This document shows, in pieces, positions 19,285 through 24,374 of a DNA stretch of 64,000 bases. Position 1 is the stretch's first letter, and every line of letters begins with the position of its first letter. Source of the stretch: Nitrososphaerota archaeon (GTDB taxonomy: Archaea > Thermoproteota > Nitrososphaeria > Nitrososphaerales > Nitrosopumilaceae); the NCBI GenBank assembly GCA_028867755.1, contig JAGWFT010000001.1:836727-900726 (forward strand), in the 5' to 3' direction. Under the pieces are notes generated by a model, which made no database searches, was not told where the DNA came from, and worked only from the letters and a program-made list of their open reading frames with translations. Both the position numbers and the translations under genes were made by a program.

Positions 19285-21051
19285 TCAAAATTGTTTTTCG
19301 TCTTGTACCACTTTCTTTTGACTGTTATACATGGTGATAATCTCATCTACAGAAGTAGCATTTTCCGGAGTTTTTTCAAATCTAATCTTCCCAGTAAATT
19401 TAGGGAAACGTAAGGCAAGACCACTGCCCTTTCTTATCTTGTCTAAAGCTGTTTTGTGAATGGGACTCAATGTAATCTCAGAAGCTACTATCTCAATTAC
19501 GACCTCTGGCTCAAACCATACATCTGCTTCAAGGCCACTATCAATCCTAGGATCTTTCTTGACGATGATCTTGTCAGACAGTATTTGATAGAATTGATCT
19601 AAACTCTCATCTGTAAACCCCGTTCCAACTTTGCAAACACTGGGATATCCATCTGTATTTTCATCATACGCAGATAAGAGTAACGCCCCATATCGTCCAG
19701 TCCTTCTGCCTCGACCATAAAATGCCCCTATGACAACCAAATCTAGAGAATCTCCCAACTCATTTTTGTATTCACGTTTTAGCTTGAGCCAATTACTTGC
19801 TCTGGCACCAGCTCTGTACGGTGAGTCAAGTTGTTTTAGCATCAATCCCTCACAACCCGAGTTAATGGCATTTTCTAGAAAGTCTTCTACCTCGTCATCT
19901 GTTTTGATTAACATCATTGGCATAACTCTGGCAAAAGAATCCTCATTTATTGAACTTTCAAGGATGCGTCGCCGCTCTTTATACGACATATCTAAACAGC
20001 TTTTACCATCAACAAACATGATATCAAAGAAATTAACTGTGATGGGATACTCGTTTACTGCTTTTGCTATGTTGTATTTCCGCCTTCTGTGCATAAGCTC
20101 TTGAAATGGTAGAAACTCTCCAGTGTTTTCGTTTATTGCCACTGCCTCTGCCTCTAATATTATTTCGTTAGCCTTTATGGATTTTCCAATCTTCTCCACA
20201 ATATCTGGATAATAATTAGTGATGTTCTCAAGGCTCCTAGAATAAAGAATGATCTTATCTTTTTGCATGTGTACCTGAACTCGCTCTCCATCAAGTTTGT
20301 ATTCTGCTGCAAAATCTGCTTGTATTTTTTCACGAGCTTCTTGTGCATCCTTTACTCTCTCTGCAAGCATCGGACGGATAGGACTAAAGACAGATACCTG
20401 AAAATGCTTCAATGCCTCTATTCCATTTTTTGCTACATCTTCTGCCACTCTTCCTAAATCACTACAAACGTTGTACGCATGTTCTAACATAGGTCTATTT
20501 TCTTTTGAACCAGTAAAAGCAATTGATAATGCGTCAAGAATGGTATAATCTGCTACCCCTAACCGCAGATTAGATGTAATTATTTTTGCAATGAATCTCC
20601 CTTCTATGGGGCTAGCATCATTCAAGAGGCTGGAAATGTATTTCATTTTCATATTTTGAGACCTATTTCCCTTGAGTTCTGCTATCTTGAATAAAGTATC
20701 ATAGACTCTCTCTATTGTTATGTCTTCTTTGAGAAAAGTTGTTTGTGTTTTTTGTTCCAAGATGTTAGCAGTAGCATGACCAAAATCCCCTACTTTTTTG
20801 TACTCGTGTTCAATTTTCAATGCTGGAACTCCCGTTGATTTTGATAGTGCTCTAATTGCAATCTTCTCGGCAACTCCTATTTCTATTCCCTCATGTTCTG
20901 GTCTTAATTTTCCCTGCAGTAAATATGCCACTTTTGAAATTATTTCAGGAGGCGTGATCTTAAACAAATCAACTAGATGCTGAGTCAGTTCTAGTCGTTT
21001 AGTGGTGCCTTCCATGTATCCTAAAGTATCAGCAACTAACGAGAATTTCAT
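19285..21051 (-). CDS. lig: ATP-dependent DNA ligase
   Basis: EYKLDGER (adenylated Lys), EGLMLK, WLKLKREY, ALRFPKF. Confidence 0.97.
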   Translation of the reverse strand: MKFSLVADTLGYMEGTTKRLELTQHLVDLFKITPPEIISKVAYLLQGKLRPEHEGIEIGVAEKIAIRALSKSTGVPALKIEHEYKKVGDFGHATANILEQKTQTTFLKEDITIERVYDTLFKIAELKGNRSQNMKMKYISSLLNDASPIEGRFIAKIITSNLRLGVADYTILDALSIAFTGSKENRPMLEHAYNVCSDLGRVAEDVAKNGIEALKHFQVSVFSPIRPMLAERVKDAQEAREKIQADFAAEYKLDGERVQVHMQKDKIILYSRSLENITNYYPDIVEKIGKSIKANEIILEAEAVAINENTGEFLPFQELMHRRRKYNIAKAVNEYPITVNFFDIMFVDGKSCLDMSYKERRRILESSINEDSFARVMPMMLIKTDDEVEDFLENAINSGCEGLMLKQLDSPYRAGARASNWLKLKREYKNELGDSLDLVVIGAFYGRGRRTGRYGALLLSAYDENTDGYPSVCKVGTGFTDESLDQFYQILSDKIIVKKDPRIDSGLEADVWFEPEVVIEIVASEITLSPIHKTALDKIRKGSGLALRFPKFTGKIRFEKTPENATSVDEIITMYNSQKKVVQDEKQF

Positions 21052-21088
21052 CTGACGATTTTTACAAACTGTAGAATAAAAGGTTGAG

Positions 21089-21391
21089 TTATTTGAGGTG
21101 TAGATGTGTTTTGATTTTTAATCGTATTTCAGGAGTTCTCTTCAAAACAGTATTATGAAAGTCTGAGGATTCTTCTAAATCCAGATATCTCTTGTTTCTC
21201 TGCAAAAATCCATCAAAGAAAACGCCGCAGATATATCCGATGTATATTCCATATGAGAAATCTTCAAGGTTGGATATTATTGACAGGGATCTGGCCTCTG
21301 ATAAGATCATCTTAGGATAATCCAGAGCGTATGTTATTACATCATTAAGATTTTTTTCCTCAATTACATCCAGGCCCATGTGACAGCCCAC
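21089..21391 (-). CDS. Hypothetical protein
   Basis: 100-aa ORF; start may be ATG 21379. Confidence 0.6.
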   Translation of the reverse strand: MGCHMGLDVIEEKNLNDVITYALDYPKMILSEARSLSIISNLEDFSYGIYIGYICGVFFDGFLQRNKRYLDLEESSDFHNTVLKRTPEIRLKIKTHLHLK

Positions 21392-21415
21392 CTTTAACTT
21401 GTATTTAGAATTTCT

Positions 21416-21423
21416 GAAATTCT
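21416..21423 (+). repeat. Left target-site duplication GAAATTCT
   Basis: Directly abuts the left TIR; identical 8-mer abuts the right TIR at 23647-23654. Confidence 0.92.
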
Positions 21424-21484
21424 GGTGCTGGGTAATTGGTGAGACCTTGTAGACAAAATTCTTTGCGTTTACCGTCGAGACCTA
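21424..21484 (+). repeat. Left terminal inverted repeat
   Basis: ggtgctgggtaattggtgagaccttgtagacaaaattct-ttgcgtttaccgtcgagaccta; GAGACCT occurs twice (21441, 21477). Confidence 0.95.
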
Positions 21485-21692
21485 AAAAAATTAGATTTTT
21501 TAAAAGGTCAGATTTAGGAAATAAGAATCTACGTTGTGGTTCAGAATCCATAGATCACAACTTACAAAGATGGGTTTGAGGCGATTTTAATGGATAATTT
21601 AGAAGACATTCTAATTATGACTGGAATAATTTTATCAGCACTTGGAATGTTGCCAGAACCTTTAACTTGAAGATGTTAGAGATCGATCAAGT

Positions 21693-23585
21693 TTGCTATC
21701 TTGTGAAAAAATTGCCGTTTTTGTGTGTTTTTCATTGTTATTAATGCCGTTAATCGTTTATGCAGACAATTACAGCAGTAAGGTTGGAAATCAACAGATC
21801 ACTATTGTAATCAGACCTAACAATACTATTGTCTCGAACATAACAAATAACACTGAAGAGGATAACCGACTGGAAAAGATAGCAGCAGAACTTTCTGAAA
21901 ACGAACGATTTTCATGGACTGAGGGGGATGTAATTATTGCATCTTCAACAATTTTTGCGTTTTTTACATTCAGTTCATTTCTAGTTATCAGATTCAAAAG
22001 CAAAAGGGTAGATGATTTACTAGATCTTATTGATACCATAATCACATCGATTCTATGTATACAAATCATACAGATAGGCATAATTATCATGATTTTGGCG
22101 GGTTGGTTCAAGGAAGGTGCATATGCATACTTGTTAGCTGCTACTGGGTTTTGCTTGATTTTAATTGCAGTTTCAATTCGACAAATAATTCATCTTGAAA
22201 ATAGAAGGGGCGAAAAAATCATCGAGGCAGATGCTACATACAAACAAGTTATGGATAAGATACTAGGATCTGAAAATGTAAAGCGTACCATAGAGAATAT
22301 CATAAATAAACCAATAACTGGGGTTAACAAACCATTTGTAGAACCTGAATTCCAAACATCATTGGATGACGATGATGACGATGAAGATGATGCGTTAGGA
22401 ATTGAAAAATTTTCTAAATTTGGTCAGGCTTCCAAAGCAGGATTAGGTGGAGAAATCATAGGACAGAAAGGACTTGGGAAGCTGTCTCTTCTACGCTTTG
22501 GCGAAAAAGTGAATTTTAGAACCAACAACGGTGAAATTGGCATGGATATAATAATGACTCCACAAGATTTTGAATACGATATAAAATCTGCAACTAAATT
22601 TTTAGATCATCAAGGAACACGCATAATAATACCTAGTCCAAAAGGTGTTCCCCCCGTTGACGATTTGGCAAATTATCTAAAGAAAGTTTTTGGTTTACGC
22701 ATTGCAAAAGGAACAGAGATCATTCTCAATGGGGTAAAACTAGAATCTAATTCTAAAATAGATCCTCAAGAAAAATTCTTGTTCAGGCTTTCTGGTGGTA
22801 AAGTAGATGTAACTGGAAACATGAAAGAAGATAAAAAAGGTCACGGAAATGCTGATCTTTACATAAGACATGTTCTTGTCACATCTCTTTTAGTAGACCC
22901 CGAAAGAAAGTTTTCTGGGTGGGTAAATTGTAATGAATTAATCCCTACAACTTCAAGAAACGATGTCGTTAGAGACAGTCATGGCGGGATATTTGATGAT
23001 TTTCTTGTCCATCTTAAAGATTATGTCCGTCGATTTCCAAAGGTTGAAGAGGAAATCACAAAAGATGAAGAATTGTTAGGTAATGAACTTAACAAAATGC
23101 TACGCAATTATCTAAGCGAGTTAAGGATTCTTCCTCAAGGAACTATTTTGATTGGACGAGGGAACGAAAATACCTTAGATAGACAAGATAAAACCAATAA
23201 GAAGGAAAAAATAATCAAGGACACACCTGAAGAAACGCCCGAATATGTCAAAATGCATACCTCACGAAAAACCAACAAACCTATCAAACGGACTGTTAAA
23301 ACCGATTATGGTGTTATGTGGGTAGATCAAAATATTGGAAATGAAAAAGAACCTATCTTTTTTGTAGAACCCAACATGGTTATTAGAAATAGAACAAATG
23401 ATATTTACAAATTCCTAGTGAAAAACAAAGCATCACTTGGTTCAAAACCAATAAGGGCATTTCCTTATCTTGCGAGAGTAGCTGTAAGTATGAACAAAGA
23501 ATCTCCGAAATGGAATCGTGAGCAGTTATTTCTTGAGATGGATAGGGCTATACGATATTTTCTAAAAAATAAAGGCGAACTTTAG
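21693..23585 (+). CDS. Passenger gene: signal peptide plus about 3 TM helices fused to an N-truncated GHKL (MORC/Hsp90-type) ATPase-like domain
   Basis: G2-box-like IGQKGLGKLSL, G3-like GTRIII, S5-like GWVNCNELIPTTSRND; no ExxxN N-box; stop abuts the right TIR. Confidence 0.7.
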   Translation: MLSCEKIAVFVCFSLLLMPLIVYADNYSSKVGNQQITIVIRPNNTIVSNITNNTEEDNRLEKIAAELSENERFSWTEGDVIIASSTIFAFFTFSSFLVIRFKSKRVDDLLDLIDTIITSILCIQIIQIGIIIMILAGWFKEGAYAYLLAATGFCLILIAVSIRQIIHLENRRGEKIIEADATYKQVMDKILGSENVKRTIENIINKPITGVNKPFVEPEFQTSLDDDDDDEDDALGIEKFSKFGQASKAGLGGEIIGQKGLGKLSLLRFGEKVNFRTNNGEIGMDIIMTPQDFEYDIKSATKFLDHQGTRIIIPSPKGVPPVDDLANYLKKVFGLRIAKGTEIILNGVKLESNSKIDPQEKFLFRLSGGKVDVTGNMKEDKKGHGNADLYIRHVLVTSLLVDPERKFSGWVNCNELIPTTSRNDVVRDSHGGIFDDFLVHLKDYVRRFPKVEEEITKDEELLGNELNKMLRNYLSELRILPQGTILIGRGNENTLDRQDKTNKKEKIIKDTPEETPEYVKMHTSRKTNKPIKRTVKTDYGVMWVDQNIGNEKEPIFFVEPNMVIRNRTNDIYKFLVKNKASLGSKPIRAFPYLARVAVSMNKESPKWNREQLFLEMDRAIRYFLKNKGEL

Positions 23586-23646
23586 TAGGTCTCGACAGTA
23601 AACAAGTAGAATTTTGTCTACAAGGTCTCACCAATTACCCAGCACC
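23586..23646 (-). repeat. Right terminal inverted repeat
   Basis: Reverse complement: ggtgctgggtaattggtgagaccttgtagacaaaattct-acttgtttactgtcgagaccta. Confidence 0.95.
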
Positions 23647-23654
23647 GAAATTCT
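23647..23654 (+). repeat. Right target-site duplication GAAATTCT
   Basis: Identical to 21416-21423. Confidence 0.92.
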
Positions 23655-23660
23655 TGTTCG

Positions 23661-23668
23661 TTTATAAA
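23661..23668 (+). promoter_or_regulatory. Probable TATA box of rps25e
   Basis: TTTATAAA 31 nt upstream of ATG 23692, typical archaeal spacing. Confidence 0.6.
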
Positions 23669-23691
23669 TAGGAGGTAGAAAGATTCAGTCT

Positions 23692-24003
23692 ATGGGCGGA
23701 GCAAAGAAAAAATCCCCTGCACAAGCAGAAAAATCTCAGACTGCAGAGGCTGCAAAGAAAGATGGACCTTCAAAGAAAGACAAGAAAGAGCAGAAACAAA
23801 GAACAAACATTTCTGTAATTGTAGACGAAGGACAAGCTATGAGTTTTATAAAAAACTCCAAAGTTTTCACCGTTCAAGAACTGTCTAGGCAAACAAATGT
23901 CAAGGTGTCGGCTGCAAATGCATTTCTGTTAAACTTGTTAAAACAAGGAACAGTAAAGAGAATAGGTGGGTATAGCGGACATCACATCTATGTGCCGTCT
24001 TGA
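23692..24003 (+). CDS. rps25e: 30S ribosomal protein S25e
   Basis: Lys-rich N-terminus, then winged helix (FTVQELSRQTNVKVSAANAFL...HHIY). Confidence 0.88.
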   Translation: MGGAKKKSPAQAEKSQTAEAAKKDGPSKKDKKEQKQRTNISVIVDEGQAMSFIKNSKVFTVQELSRQTNVKVSAANAFLLNLLKQGTVKRIGGYSGHHIYVPS

Positions 24004-24374
24004 AATATAGAAAAAACATCTCCAGGTTTAACCTCTTTTAGCATTTCAATGTTAGATGTTATTTTACCAACCAATGTCATGGGCTTTGCTGATGCAACAT
24101 CTTCTAAAAAAAAGCAAATTGAGCCATTTGATGCCATGAACCCAACTTCTCCTTTTTTGAACTGAGTTCTGAGTTTTTCGCCTCCTGCAGTAAGAGTTGT
24201 ATCCATAAAAGCAATAGAACTTCCCATCATGTGCGAGTTGCCCTCAAGTGGTAGACCTCTTAATATGGCGCCAACAGTTTTTGGTGCAAGATGACGTTTT
24301 AATTCAATTTTCATCTGCACCTTTCCTTTCAAATCTAATACCAGATCAATTTTGGATACAGATCCAGCACTCAT
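23988..24374 (-). CDS. Cyclophilin-like fold protein
   Basis: APKTVGAILRGLPLEG...GEVGF...SICFF. Confidence 0.8.
   Translation of the reverse strand: MSAGSVSKIDLVLDLKGKVQMKIELKRHLAPKTVGAILRGLPLEGNSHMMGSSIAFMDTTLTAGGEKLRTQFKKGEVGFMASNGSICFFLEDVASAKPMTLVGKITSNIEMLKEVKPGDVFSIFQDGT

What the first reader, a model, noticed from the sequence alone, without database searches (positions are those of the whole stretch)
21416..23654. Complete transposase-less mobile cassette with 61-bp TIRs and 8-bp TSD carrying a passenger gene
Seen: 21424-21484 and 23586-23646 are inverted repeats (39 bp perfect, 56/61 overall), each with two internal GAGACCT sub-repeats. Both ends are flanked by the same 8-mer, GAAATTCT. 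The interior holds one 630-aa ORF whose stop abuts the right TIR, and nothing transposase-like. Established: GG-terminated ends with 8-bp TSDs occur in IS1, IS6 and IS1595 family elements, and passenger-only derivatives are known in bacteria as mobile insertion cassettes. Inference: this is a recently inserted non-autonomous gene-carrying element, mobilised in trans, in an AOA lineage where I know of few such descriptions.
Basis: partly seen in the sequence, partly recalled or inferred. Interest (0 to 1): 0.88.

Follow-up and report, generated by a model that had tools for sequence, protein, structure and literature searches.

The report
Transposase-less IS6-like cargo transposon in Nitrosotalea
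This is a real jumping-gene remnant in an ammonia-oxidising archaeon: a 2.2-kb cassette with 60-base inverted ends and an 8-base target duplication, lacking its own transposase, carrying a fused and beheaded gene, and sitting in an intergenic spot that relatives of the element have hit repeatedly.

Summary
The inverted ends are 21424-21483 and 23587-23646 (39 outer bases perfect, 56/61). Both are flanked by GAAATTCT, and one 630-aa ORF ends at the right repeat.

About 20 congeneric Nitrosotalea genomes have the empty site with a single 8-mer, so the duplication is a true target-site duplication.

The ends belong to a 60-nt terminal-repeat family found only in Nitrosopumilaceae: GGTKCTGGGTAA, then two GAGACCT boxes and GTTTAC. 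Full elements with the same ends and 8-bp duplications carry a 371-aa transposase (SWIM zinc finger plus IS240-type DDE domain) and passenger genes. The family is IS6-like but atypical: its ends are three to four times longer, its transposase is larger, and cargo is routine.

The window copy has no transposase, and its genome holds only four transposase scraps, so it is stranded.

The "passenger gene" is an in-frame chimera. A complete small membrane protein is fused to an Hsp90/MORC-type GHKL ATPase that lacks its first 63 residues, including the ATP-binding motifs.

The same 8-mer, half of a 17-bp palindrome upstream of rps25e, is occupied in ten loci by at least four end subfamilies. It is an insertion hot spot.

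Whether the cassette ever moved without its transposase is unresolved.

The parts
21407..21423 (.). 17-bp perfect palindrome AGAATTTC-T-GAAATTCT. Its right half is the target 8-mer. It lies between the divergent promoter regions of the two flanking genes.
   Evidence: Read directly. The same imperfect palindrome is present in empty sites of relatives.
21416..21423 (.). Left copy of the 8-bp target-site duplication GAAATTCT.
   Evidence: Empty sites such as G030, G307 and G005 carry one copy only.
21424..21483 (+). Left 60-nt terminal inverted repeat: tip GGTGCTGGGTAA, GAGACCT boxes at 21441-21447 and 21477-21483, GTTTAC at 21467-21472.
   Evidence: alignment of 28 related ends; fixed 60-nt architecture.
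21590..21670 (+). Possible 26-codon hydrophobic small ORF, preceded by a hairpin (GTTGTG...CACAAC).
   Evidence: About 90 nt are 78% identical to a stretch beside a transposase gene in G017, an unpublished genome. Status as a gene is uncertain.
21693..22391 (+). 5' part of the chimeric ORF. It encodes an essentially full-length small membrane protein: signal peptide, N-glycosylation sequons, three predicted helices and an acidic tail.
   Evidence: It aligns end to end with the stand-alone 222-aa protein P0098 (38% identity, E 3e-44). About 40 stand-alone relatives of 130-290 aa were found.
22392..22403 (+). Fusion junction (codons ALGI) after a GAT/GAC-rich poly-Asp run.
   Evidence: DNA similarity to the intact ATPase gene starts abruptly at 22404.
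22404..23585 (+). 3' 1181 nt plus stop codon of an Hsp90/MORC-type GHKL ATPase gene. It lacks codons 1-63, which hold the Asn box and the DxGxG box.
   Evidence: 92.9% identical to L084 5190-6370. The model of the intact homologue matches TRAP1/Hsp90/MORC structures.
23587..23646 (-). Right 60-nt terminal inverted repeat, with GAGACCT boxes (as AGGTCTC) at 23587-23593 and 23623-23629.
23647..23654 (.). Right copy of the 8-bp target-site duplication GAAATTCT.
21089..21391 (-). Left flanking host gene (100 aa, no family hit), transcribed away from the element.
   Evidence: It lies next to rps25e in 26 of 28 relatives examined.
23692..24003 (+). Right flanking host gene, ribosomal protein S25e. 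A TATA-like TTTATAAATA lies at 23661-23670, 6 nt beyond the duplication.
   Evidence: Pfam PF03297, 37 bits. The promoter reading is an inference from the sequence.

Best explanation
The stretch 21424-23646 is a non-autonomous derivative of a cargo-carrying DNA transposon family of Nitrosopumilaceae.

Full members of the family encode a ~371-aa transposase with a SWIM zinc finger, a zinc ribbon, an HTH and an IS240/IS6-type DDE domain. I infer that this enzyme recognises the 60-nt ends (an IS6-like GGTKCTG tip plus two GAGACCT boxes 36 nt apart). I also infer that it joins them to staggered cuts 8 bp apart; repair of those cuts gives the 8-bp duplication that is shown here.

The element entered the right half of a 17-bp palindrome between the divergent promoters of a 100-aa gene and rps25e. 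Relatives of the element have used this exact site repeatedly.

The window copy has no transposase. Its only long ORF is a fusion of a small membrane-protein gene with a GHKL ATPase gene that lost its ATP-binding head, so the cargo is most likely inert or at best neo-functionalised. With only transposase scraps left in this genome, the cassette is now stranded.

I lean (about 55:45) to a history in which an autonomous element with a cargo-transposase-cargo layout inserted here. One internal deletion would then have removed the transposase and fused the two inward-facing cargo genes. The alternative is that a ready-made cassette was moved in trans.
For: Ends and duplication:
- Repeats, duplication and ORF are as described.
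- The ends are unique in the genome.

Empty site:
- The empty site, with one copy of the 8-mer, is present in about 20 congeners.

End family:
- The 60-nt end architecture is conserved in 28 ends.
- The end motif occurs in 16 of 399 family genomes, against 2 control hits. All 9 species-genome hits among 185,579 species are Nitrosopumilales.

Complete elements with perfect or 7/8 8-bp duplications:
- G114, CAGAAAGA.
- L111, TAAATCAA.
- L104, GAAACTTT.
- G183, (T/C)GATTTGG.
- G032, GAACTTCT, from an unpublished genome.

Transposase inside matching ends:
- Seen in L111, L104, L108, L035 and G032.
- The transposase matches PF13610 at 44.7 bits (cut-off 27) and SWIM at 20.3 bits (cut-off 19.6). NCBIfam IS6 is its best hit at 117 bits.
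- The tip GGTTCTG equals the first 7 nt of the IS6/IS26 consensus GGTTCTGTTGCAAA (PMC6807381).

This genome and the cargo:
- The genome has only four transposase fragments.
- The cargo is a chimera.

In-situ deletion lean:
- Autonomous relatives have a cargo-transposase-cargo layout.
- Decayed remnants sit at the same site in G004 and G016.
Against: - No second copy of this cassette, with this cargo, was found anywhere, so movement as a transposase-less unit is not demonstrated.
- No progenitor was found with an intact ATPase gene abutting a right end. Six contexts of intact homologues lack these ends.
- The transposase score is just under NCBIfam's IS6 cut-off (117 vs 125).
- The 60-nt ends and 2-4 kb sizes depart from IS6 norms (PMC7986276).
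- Most transposase-family copies in the genus show no such end within 1.5 kb, so only one sub-clade of the transposases is tied to these ends.
- Binding of the transposase to the GAGACCT boxes, and the transposition chemistry (copy-in cointegrate or cut-and-paste), are inferred and not tested.
Confidence: 0.82

Rival explanations
1. The cassette was already transposase-less and chimeric before it arrived. A transposase made by a full element in the same cell, since lost, moved it in trans. This would make it a true mobile insertion cassette.
For: The outer 39 nt of both ends and both duplication copies are perfect, so the ends are still competent substrates. A second transposase-less element with perfect ends and duplication, but restriction-modification cargo, exists in G114. 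Transposase scraps in this genome show the family was once present.
Against: The cassette is single-copy in its genome. No other copy of this cargo between such ends appeared in 399 family genomes, the species-genome collection or the metagenome scan. Intact ends and duplication fit a recent in-situ deletion equally well.
Confidence: 0.37
2. There was one ancient insertion at this site in an ancestor of the genus. Today's full, partial and empty states then arose by vertical descent, decay, precise loss between the 8-bp repeats, and cargo or end replacement by recombination. On this view there was no repeated targeting.
For: Remnants of many sizes sit at exactly the same boundaries. L104 has left and right ends of different subfamilies, which suggests recombination between elements. 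Slippage between 8-bp repeats can restore an empty site exactly (established knowledge of precise excision).
Against: At least four end subfamilies sit at the site. Their 19-nt spacers are unalignable, while the flanking DNA is 75-87% identical. The same subfamilies occur at other loci. In each occupied genome both duplication copies are identical to each other but differ between genomes: GAAATTCT, GAACTTCT, GAAACTTT. Occupancy needs 8 changes on the flanking-gene tree, at least 4 of them forced by well-supported branches.
Confidence: 0.12
3. The repeats are not transposon ends. They would be a regulatory or structural inverted repeat, or attachment sites of a site-specific recombinase, bracketing a host gene.
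For: The site lies between two promoters and next to a palindrome. No recombinase or transposase is inside.
Against: The same 60-nt ends bracket unrelated cargo at unrelated loci with different 8-bp duplications. They co-occur with a DDE transposase. Most relatives lack the whole unit at this locus. No RNA family matches.
Confidence: 0.02

Closest known systems
IS6 (IS6/IS26) family insertion sequences, especially the longer zinc-finger-bearing and archaeal groups
   Same: Both make an 8-bp target duplication. The ends start GG with G at position 7, and the tip GGTTCTG is identical to the first 7 nt of the IS6/IS26 consensus (PMC6807381). The transposase carries the DDE_Tnp_IS240 domain, and its best NCBIfam hit is IS6.
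   Different: The ends are 60 nt with two subterminal GAGACCT boxes, not 14-20 nt. The transposase is ~371 aa with a SWIM finger and zinc ribbon, not ~235 aa. Elements are 2.2-4.3 kb and routinely carry 2-4 passenger genes inside the ends, whereas the IS6 review lists a single passenger-carrying member and two MITEs (PMC7986276). The NCBIfam score falls just below the IS6 cut-off. Cointegrate formation is untested.
Mobile insertion cassettes (MICs, e.g. MIC231 of the Bacillus cereus group; recalled from knowledge, cf. PMC6199540, PMC6542083)
   Same: Both have ends matching those of a transposase-encoding relative, no transposase inside, coding cargo, and a target duplication.
   Different: Trans-mobilisation has been demonstrated for MIC231. 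Here the cassette is single-copy and may be an in-situ deletion product. The host is an archaeon, the partner family is IS6-like rather than IS4-like, and the cargo is a broken chimera.
IS-like transposons catalogued in Thaumarchaeota (Krupovic et al. 2019, PMC6563490)
   Same: Same host phylum. DDE-type IS elements are known to be common there.
   Different: That survey describes IS-like transposons of 1-2 genes. A text search of it found no mention of MITEs or non-autonomous elements. The 60-nt end family, its cargo and its hot spot are not described there.
Hsp90/TRAP1 and MORC GHKL ATPases (for the cargo)
   Same: The intact 456-aa homologue carries HATPase_c_3 (29.3 bits). Its model matches TRAP1, Hsp90 and MORC2/3/4 ATPase plus transducer domains (Foldseek E 1e-16 to 1e-12, TM about 0.45).
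   Different: The window copy lacks residues 1-63, which hold the invariant Asn33, Asp36, Asp55 and Gly57. It is fused instead to a membrane protein, and no relative has that fusion.

Membership tests
IS6 / IS26 family | 8-bp direct target duplication | tested here: met
   The window has GAAATTCT on both sides. L111, L104, G114 and G032 have perfect 8-bp duplications and G183 has 7/8. An empty site with a single copy is seen.
IS6 / IS26 family | Ends begin GG with G at position 7; consensus GGTTCTGTTGCAAA | tested here: met
   The consensus of 28 ends is gGt.ctGGGTAA. The majority form GGTTCTG equals consensus positions 1-7, and similarity is lost from position 8 (PMC6807381).
IS6 / IS26 family | Short ends (14-20 bp) and compact size (about 0.7-0.9 kb, rarely to 1.7 kb), with transposase as the only gene | tested here: not met
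   The ends are a structured 60 nt. Complete elements measure 2.2, 3.3, 3.9, 4.0 and 4.3 kb and carry passenger ORFs (PMC7986276).
IS6 / IS26 family | DDE transposase of the IS240/IS6 type | tested here: inconclusive
   There is none in the window element. In full relatives PF13610 scores 44.7 bits (cut-off 27), but NCBIfam IS6 scores 117 bits (cut-off 125). They also have an extra SWIM finger and zinc ribbon at the N-terminus.
IS6 / IS26 family | Transposition by cointegrate formation (copy-in or targeted conservative) | not testable with these tools
   This needs a transposition assay. Nested and same-site arrangements are suggestive only.
Mobile insertion cassette (MIC) | Ends matching those of a transposase-encoding element, no transposase inside, coding cargo | tested here: met
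   Ends are covered. No transposase family hit lies inside.
Mobile insertion cassette (MIC) | Evidence that the cassette itself has moved (several copies, or the same cassette at different loci) | tested here: not met
   There is a single copy in the genome. The same cargo was not found between such ends elsewhere.
MITE | Small (under about 0.6 kb) non-coding element made only of ends | tested here: not met
   The element is 2223 bp with a 1.9-kb ORF.
Casposon | Cas1 integrase, family B polymerase, longer duplications | tested here: not met
   There are no such genes inside. The duplication is 8 bp.
GHKL ATPase (HATPase_c_3; cargo) | Bergerat fold with Asn box (ExxxNxxD) and DxGxG box | tested here: not met
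   Both motifs lie in residues 1-63 of intact homologues, which are absent from the window ORF. The window ORF has no Pfam hit. The intact homologue passes the family cut-off.

The most novel reading that the evidence does not exclude
This IS6-like family has a real target-selection mechanism for the 17-bp palindrome between the rps25e promoter and its neighbour's promoter. The site would then act as a landing pad where different end subfamilies deliver, swap and shed cargo (restriction-modification genes, membrane proteins, ATPases) across Nitrosotalea species. Targeting could work through the SWIM/zinc-ribbon N-terminus or through a host factor bound at the palindrome. That would be a previously undescribed site-preferring DDE transposon system in ammonia-oxidising archaea.
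Probability: 0.35. Interest if true: 0.7.

Novelty: new variant of a known kind. Interest (0 to 1): 0.52.

Why it matters
Ammonia-oxidising archaea have small, streamlined genomes, and little is known about how they gain accessory genes. This finding defines a transposon family limited to Nitrosopumilaceae. It has unusually long, structured ends, a SWIM-finger IS6-like transposase and routine cargo, including a restriction-modification system. The finding also shows a transposase-less derivative and a nucleotide-exact insertion hot spot next to a ribosomal protein gene.

It gives concrete substrates (60-nt ends, a 17-bp target) for testing how archaeal IS6-like enzymes choose ends and targets. 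That question is open, because the placement of archaeal 'IS6' elements in the family is itself disputed (PMC6807381).

For this genome the practical result is annotation: the 630-aa ORF is a fusion artefact of element decay, not a new sensor ATPase.

Tried and rejected
- Pfam, NCBIfam and PADLOC scans of the 630-aa ORF gave nothing above noise.
- PDB sequence search of the intact homologue gave no hit.
- Rfam on 20800-24200 gave no hit.
- My first end pattern for the genus had the spacer one base short and missed the window itself. It was corrected.
- I looked for the ends around six intact ATPase homologues to find a progenitor (L084, L085, L087, L122-L124). None was found, and one contig had no DNA on hand.
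- I tested whether cargo ORFs of other elements are related to the window's cargo (L108 458 aa, L104 409 aa, L111 229 aa, L087 233 aa). None is.
- Partner ends for the single ends in G068 and G023 were not found within 7 kb.
- Pfam on cargo of other elements gave mostly no family.
- The scan's earlier notes by sequence gave no look-alike.
- Casposon, MITE and regulatory-repeat readings were considered and rejected (see membership tests and rivals).
Full report
**1. Observation**

- The left arm is 21424-21484. The reverse complement of 23586-23646 agrees with it at 56 of 61 positions.
- The outer 39 nt are identical. All five mismatches cluster at positions 40-43 and 50.
- Each arm has two GAGACCT boxes in the same orientation.
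- GAAATTCT lies immediately outside both arms (21416-23 and 23647-54).
- The 23-nt tip occurs exactly twice in the window, against 0 expected. The arms have no other copy in the 1.64-Mb, 99.95%-complete genome.
- The only long ORF, 21693-23585 (630 aa), ends one base before the right arm.
- No transposase family matches it.

**2. The duplication is real: empty sites**

The flanking genes are a 100-aa ORF (21089-21391, minus strand) and ribosomal protein S25e (23692-24003; PF03297). I used the S25e protein to fetch the orthologous locus from 29 congeners.
- In 26 of 28 relatives the two genes are neighbours. In about 20, the spacer is 60-83 nt and holds the 8-mer once. G030, G307 and G005, for example, read ...TTTAGAACTTCTGAAATTCTCGTTCGTTTATAAATAGG.
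- Record titles of loci in the same genus name it as Nitrosotalea.

**3. The ends define a family**

A tip motif found matches in 16 of 399 Nitrosopumilaceae genomes, against 2 hits for the reversed control.
- An exact scan of one genome for each of 185,579 species gave 9 hits. All are Nitrosopumilales or unclassified archaeal MAGs.
- A longer motif gave 14 metagenome contigs.
- Twenty-eight ends align without gaps over exactly 60 nt. The parts are GGTKCTGGGTAA (1-12), TGAGACCT (17-24), a variable spacer, GTTTAC (44-49) and GAGACCT (54-60).
- The spacer sequences fall into subfamilies.

**4. Complete elements and the autonomous partner**

Five further elements have both ends and a direct repeat:
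- **G114:C6:** 4.0 kb, duplication CAGAAAGA. Its cargo is a fused nuclease-methylase (frameshifted) plus a specificity subunit, and it has no transposase.
- **L111 (public metagenome contig):** 3.3 kb, duplication TAAATCAA, three ORFs plus a 371-aa transposase.
- **L104 (public):** 4.26 kb, duplication GAAACTTT. The transposase has one frameshift and there are two ORFs.
- **G183:C27:** a composite with a truncated transposase, flanked by (T/C)GATTTGG.
- **G032:C16 (unpublished genome):** 3.9 kb, duplication GAACTTCT, intact 368-aa transposase plus four ORFs.

L108 and L035 (G260) also pair an end with the transposase.

The transposase has a SWIM finger, a zinc ribbon and a DDE_Tnp_IS240 domain (44.7 bits, cut-off 27). 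Its best NCBIfam match is IS6, at 117 bits against a cut-off of 125.

The transposase family is in 58 of 61 genus genomes. Only copies closest to L035 (63-88% identity) are seen with these ends. More distant copies showed no such end within 1.5 kb.

**5. Comparison with IS6**

Three features match the IS6/IS26 definition (PMC7986276, PMC6807381):
- the 8-bp duplication;
- the GG tip with G7, where GGTTCTG equals the first seven bases of the consensus GGTTCTGTTGCAAA;
- the DDE domain type.

Four features do not match:
- the 60-nt ends with subterminal boxes;
- the larger transposase with extra N-terminal fingers;
- the 2-4 kb size;
- routine cargo. The IS6 review lists one passenger-carrying member and two MITEs.

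Harmer and Hall already argue that archaeal 'IS6' elements may deserve their own family. I therefore file this as IS6-like, a new variant, not a plain member. The chemistry (cointegrate or cut-and-paste) could not be tested.

**6. The cargo is a chimera**

- About 70 close relatives are ~455-aa proteins that cover only the last 63% of the ORF and carry HATPase_c_3.
- An exhaustive search showed two separate sets of relatives. Stand-alone ~200-aa proteins match residues 5-205, and ~455-aa proteins match residues 235-630. No protein spans both parts.
- Residues 1-229 align end to end with a 222-aa protein, including its acidic C-terminus.
- DNA identity to an intact ATPase gene (L084, 92.9%) starts abruptly at 22404, which is codon 64 of the intact gene, and runs to the stop codon.
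- The lost 63 residues hold the invariant Asn33, Asp36, Asp55 and Gly57.
- A model of the intact homologue (pLDDT 83) matches TRAP1/Hsp90 and MORC ATPase-transducer structures.
- The retained part differs from L084 at 62 synonymous and 16 non-synonymous codons. That shows past purifying selection but cannot date the truncation.
- Intact homologues always have a divergent ~110-aa partner gene, which is absent here. Three of six contexts have the transposase family within 1-3 kb, and none has the 60-nt ends.

The cargo is therefore most likely inactive as an ATPase.

**7. A nucleotide-exact hot spot**

The target 8-mer is the right half of a perfect 17-bp palindrome (21407-21423). It lies between TATA-like boxes of the two divergent genes.

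Ten loci have something inserted at these same boundaries:
- the window;
- G032 (unpublished genome);
- L104;
- G004, a 0.9-kb remnant with a transposase scrap and a right end;
- G016, a 0.4-kb remnant with a right end;
- G029, a 39-nt solo left end of the window's subfamily;
- G366, G278, G034 and G031, which carry short inserts.

Four lines of evidence point to repeated insertion:
- At least four end subfamilies are involved, and each is also found at other loci.
- Within each occupied genome the two duplication copies are identical, yet they differ between genomes.
- On a tree of the flanking genes (609 columns) occupancy needs 8 changes, at least 4 of them forced by well-supported branches. 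That tree includes rows from the unpublished genomes G017, G010 and G032.
- Six of 18 end matches in the genus lie at this one site.

Elements at other loci have different, AT-rich targets, so the preference is strong but not absolute. Repeated independent insertion is the best reading. Precise loss and end recombination may also contribute, since L104 has ends of two subfamilies.

**8. History of this copy**

The genome holds only four transposase scraps, so the cassette is stranded now.
- The perfect duplication and perfect outer 39 nt contrast with 14% divergence of the flanking genes from the nearest relatives. This argues that the insertion is younger than the species splits.
- Two histories remain open: a cassette moved in trans, or an autonomous element that lost its middle in place.
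- I lean to loss in place. Full relatives have a cargo-transposase-cargo layout, and one deletion between two inward-reading cargo genes would both remove the transposase and create the observed in-frame fusion. Decay in place is also seen at this site in G004 and G016.
- No progenitor was found, so this remains an inference.

**9. Verdict**

The element is a new variant of a known kind: an IS6-like cargo transposon family of ammonia-oxidising archaea, seen here as a transposase-less, decayed copy in a recurrent insertion site.

Claims that rest on unpublished genomes:
- **G032:** one of the autonomous elements at this site.
- **G017:** one empty site, and the small-ORF similarity.
- **G010:** one empty site and two ends.

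Every main conclusion also stands on public records (L104, L111, L108, L035/G260, G114, G183, G004, G016, G029, G030, G307).

Noticed in passing
window 21407-21423: The insertion target is half of a perfect 17-bp palindrome, AGAATTTC-T-GAAATTCT. It lies between the divergent promoter regions of the 100-aa gene and rps25e and is conserved, imperfectly, in empty sites of relatives. It could be an operator or a structural feature that attracts the transposase.
   Followed up: partly
L029 1481-5496 (G114:C6; also L090): A 4.0-kb transposase-less element with the same end family and duplication CAGAAAGA carries a restriction-modification pair. One gene is a fused HSDR_N nuclease / N6 methylase split by a frameshift (540 + 104 aa). 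The other is a 491-aa specificity subunit.
   Followed up: partly
L031 835-3140 (G183:C27; same as metagenome L101): A composite arrangement reads: left end, membrane protein, HxlR regulator, transposase cut at residue 251, second left end, 216-aa ORF, right end with a degenerate tip. It is flanked by (T/C)GATTTGG. It looks like one element inserted into another's transposase gene, followed by deletion. G374:C165 shows a similar cut transposase next to an end.
   Followed up: partly
L104 156-215 and 4352-4411: [quoted passage not shown] This suggests recombination between elements or end exchange.
   Followed up: no
L084, L085, L087, L122, L124 (contexts of intact ATPase homologues): The 455-aa Hsp90/MORC-like ATPase always has a divergent ~91-122-aa gene immediately upstream. 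This is a conserved two-gene module of unknown function. Three of the six contexts lie near the SWIM-DDE transposase.
   Followed up: no
window 21533-21670: A hairpin (GTTGTG...CACAAC) is followed by a 26-codon hydrophobic ORF. The stretch is similar to one next to a transposase gene in G017 (unpublished genome). It may be a small membrane peptide gene or a leader.
   Followed up: partly
L058 (G029), L061 (G034), L071 (G031): Inserts of 35-39 nt sit at the exact hot-spot boundaries. G029's is a solo left end, apparently left by deletion between AAATTCT inside the end and the right duplication copy. The other two may be excision or decay footprints.
   Followed up: partly
G000:C24:1124669-1124944, C24:810213-810335, C24:676611-677051, C35:176374-176490: The window's genome has four scraps of the transposase family and no intact copy. 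The family has been active here and has since been purged.
   Followed up: partly
L008 about 1490-1545 (G030:C43): A right-end-like tip (GGTGCTGGGTAGTTTGAGAGACC on the minus strand) lies beside a PIN-domain-like gene that appears truncated.
   Followed up: no
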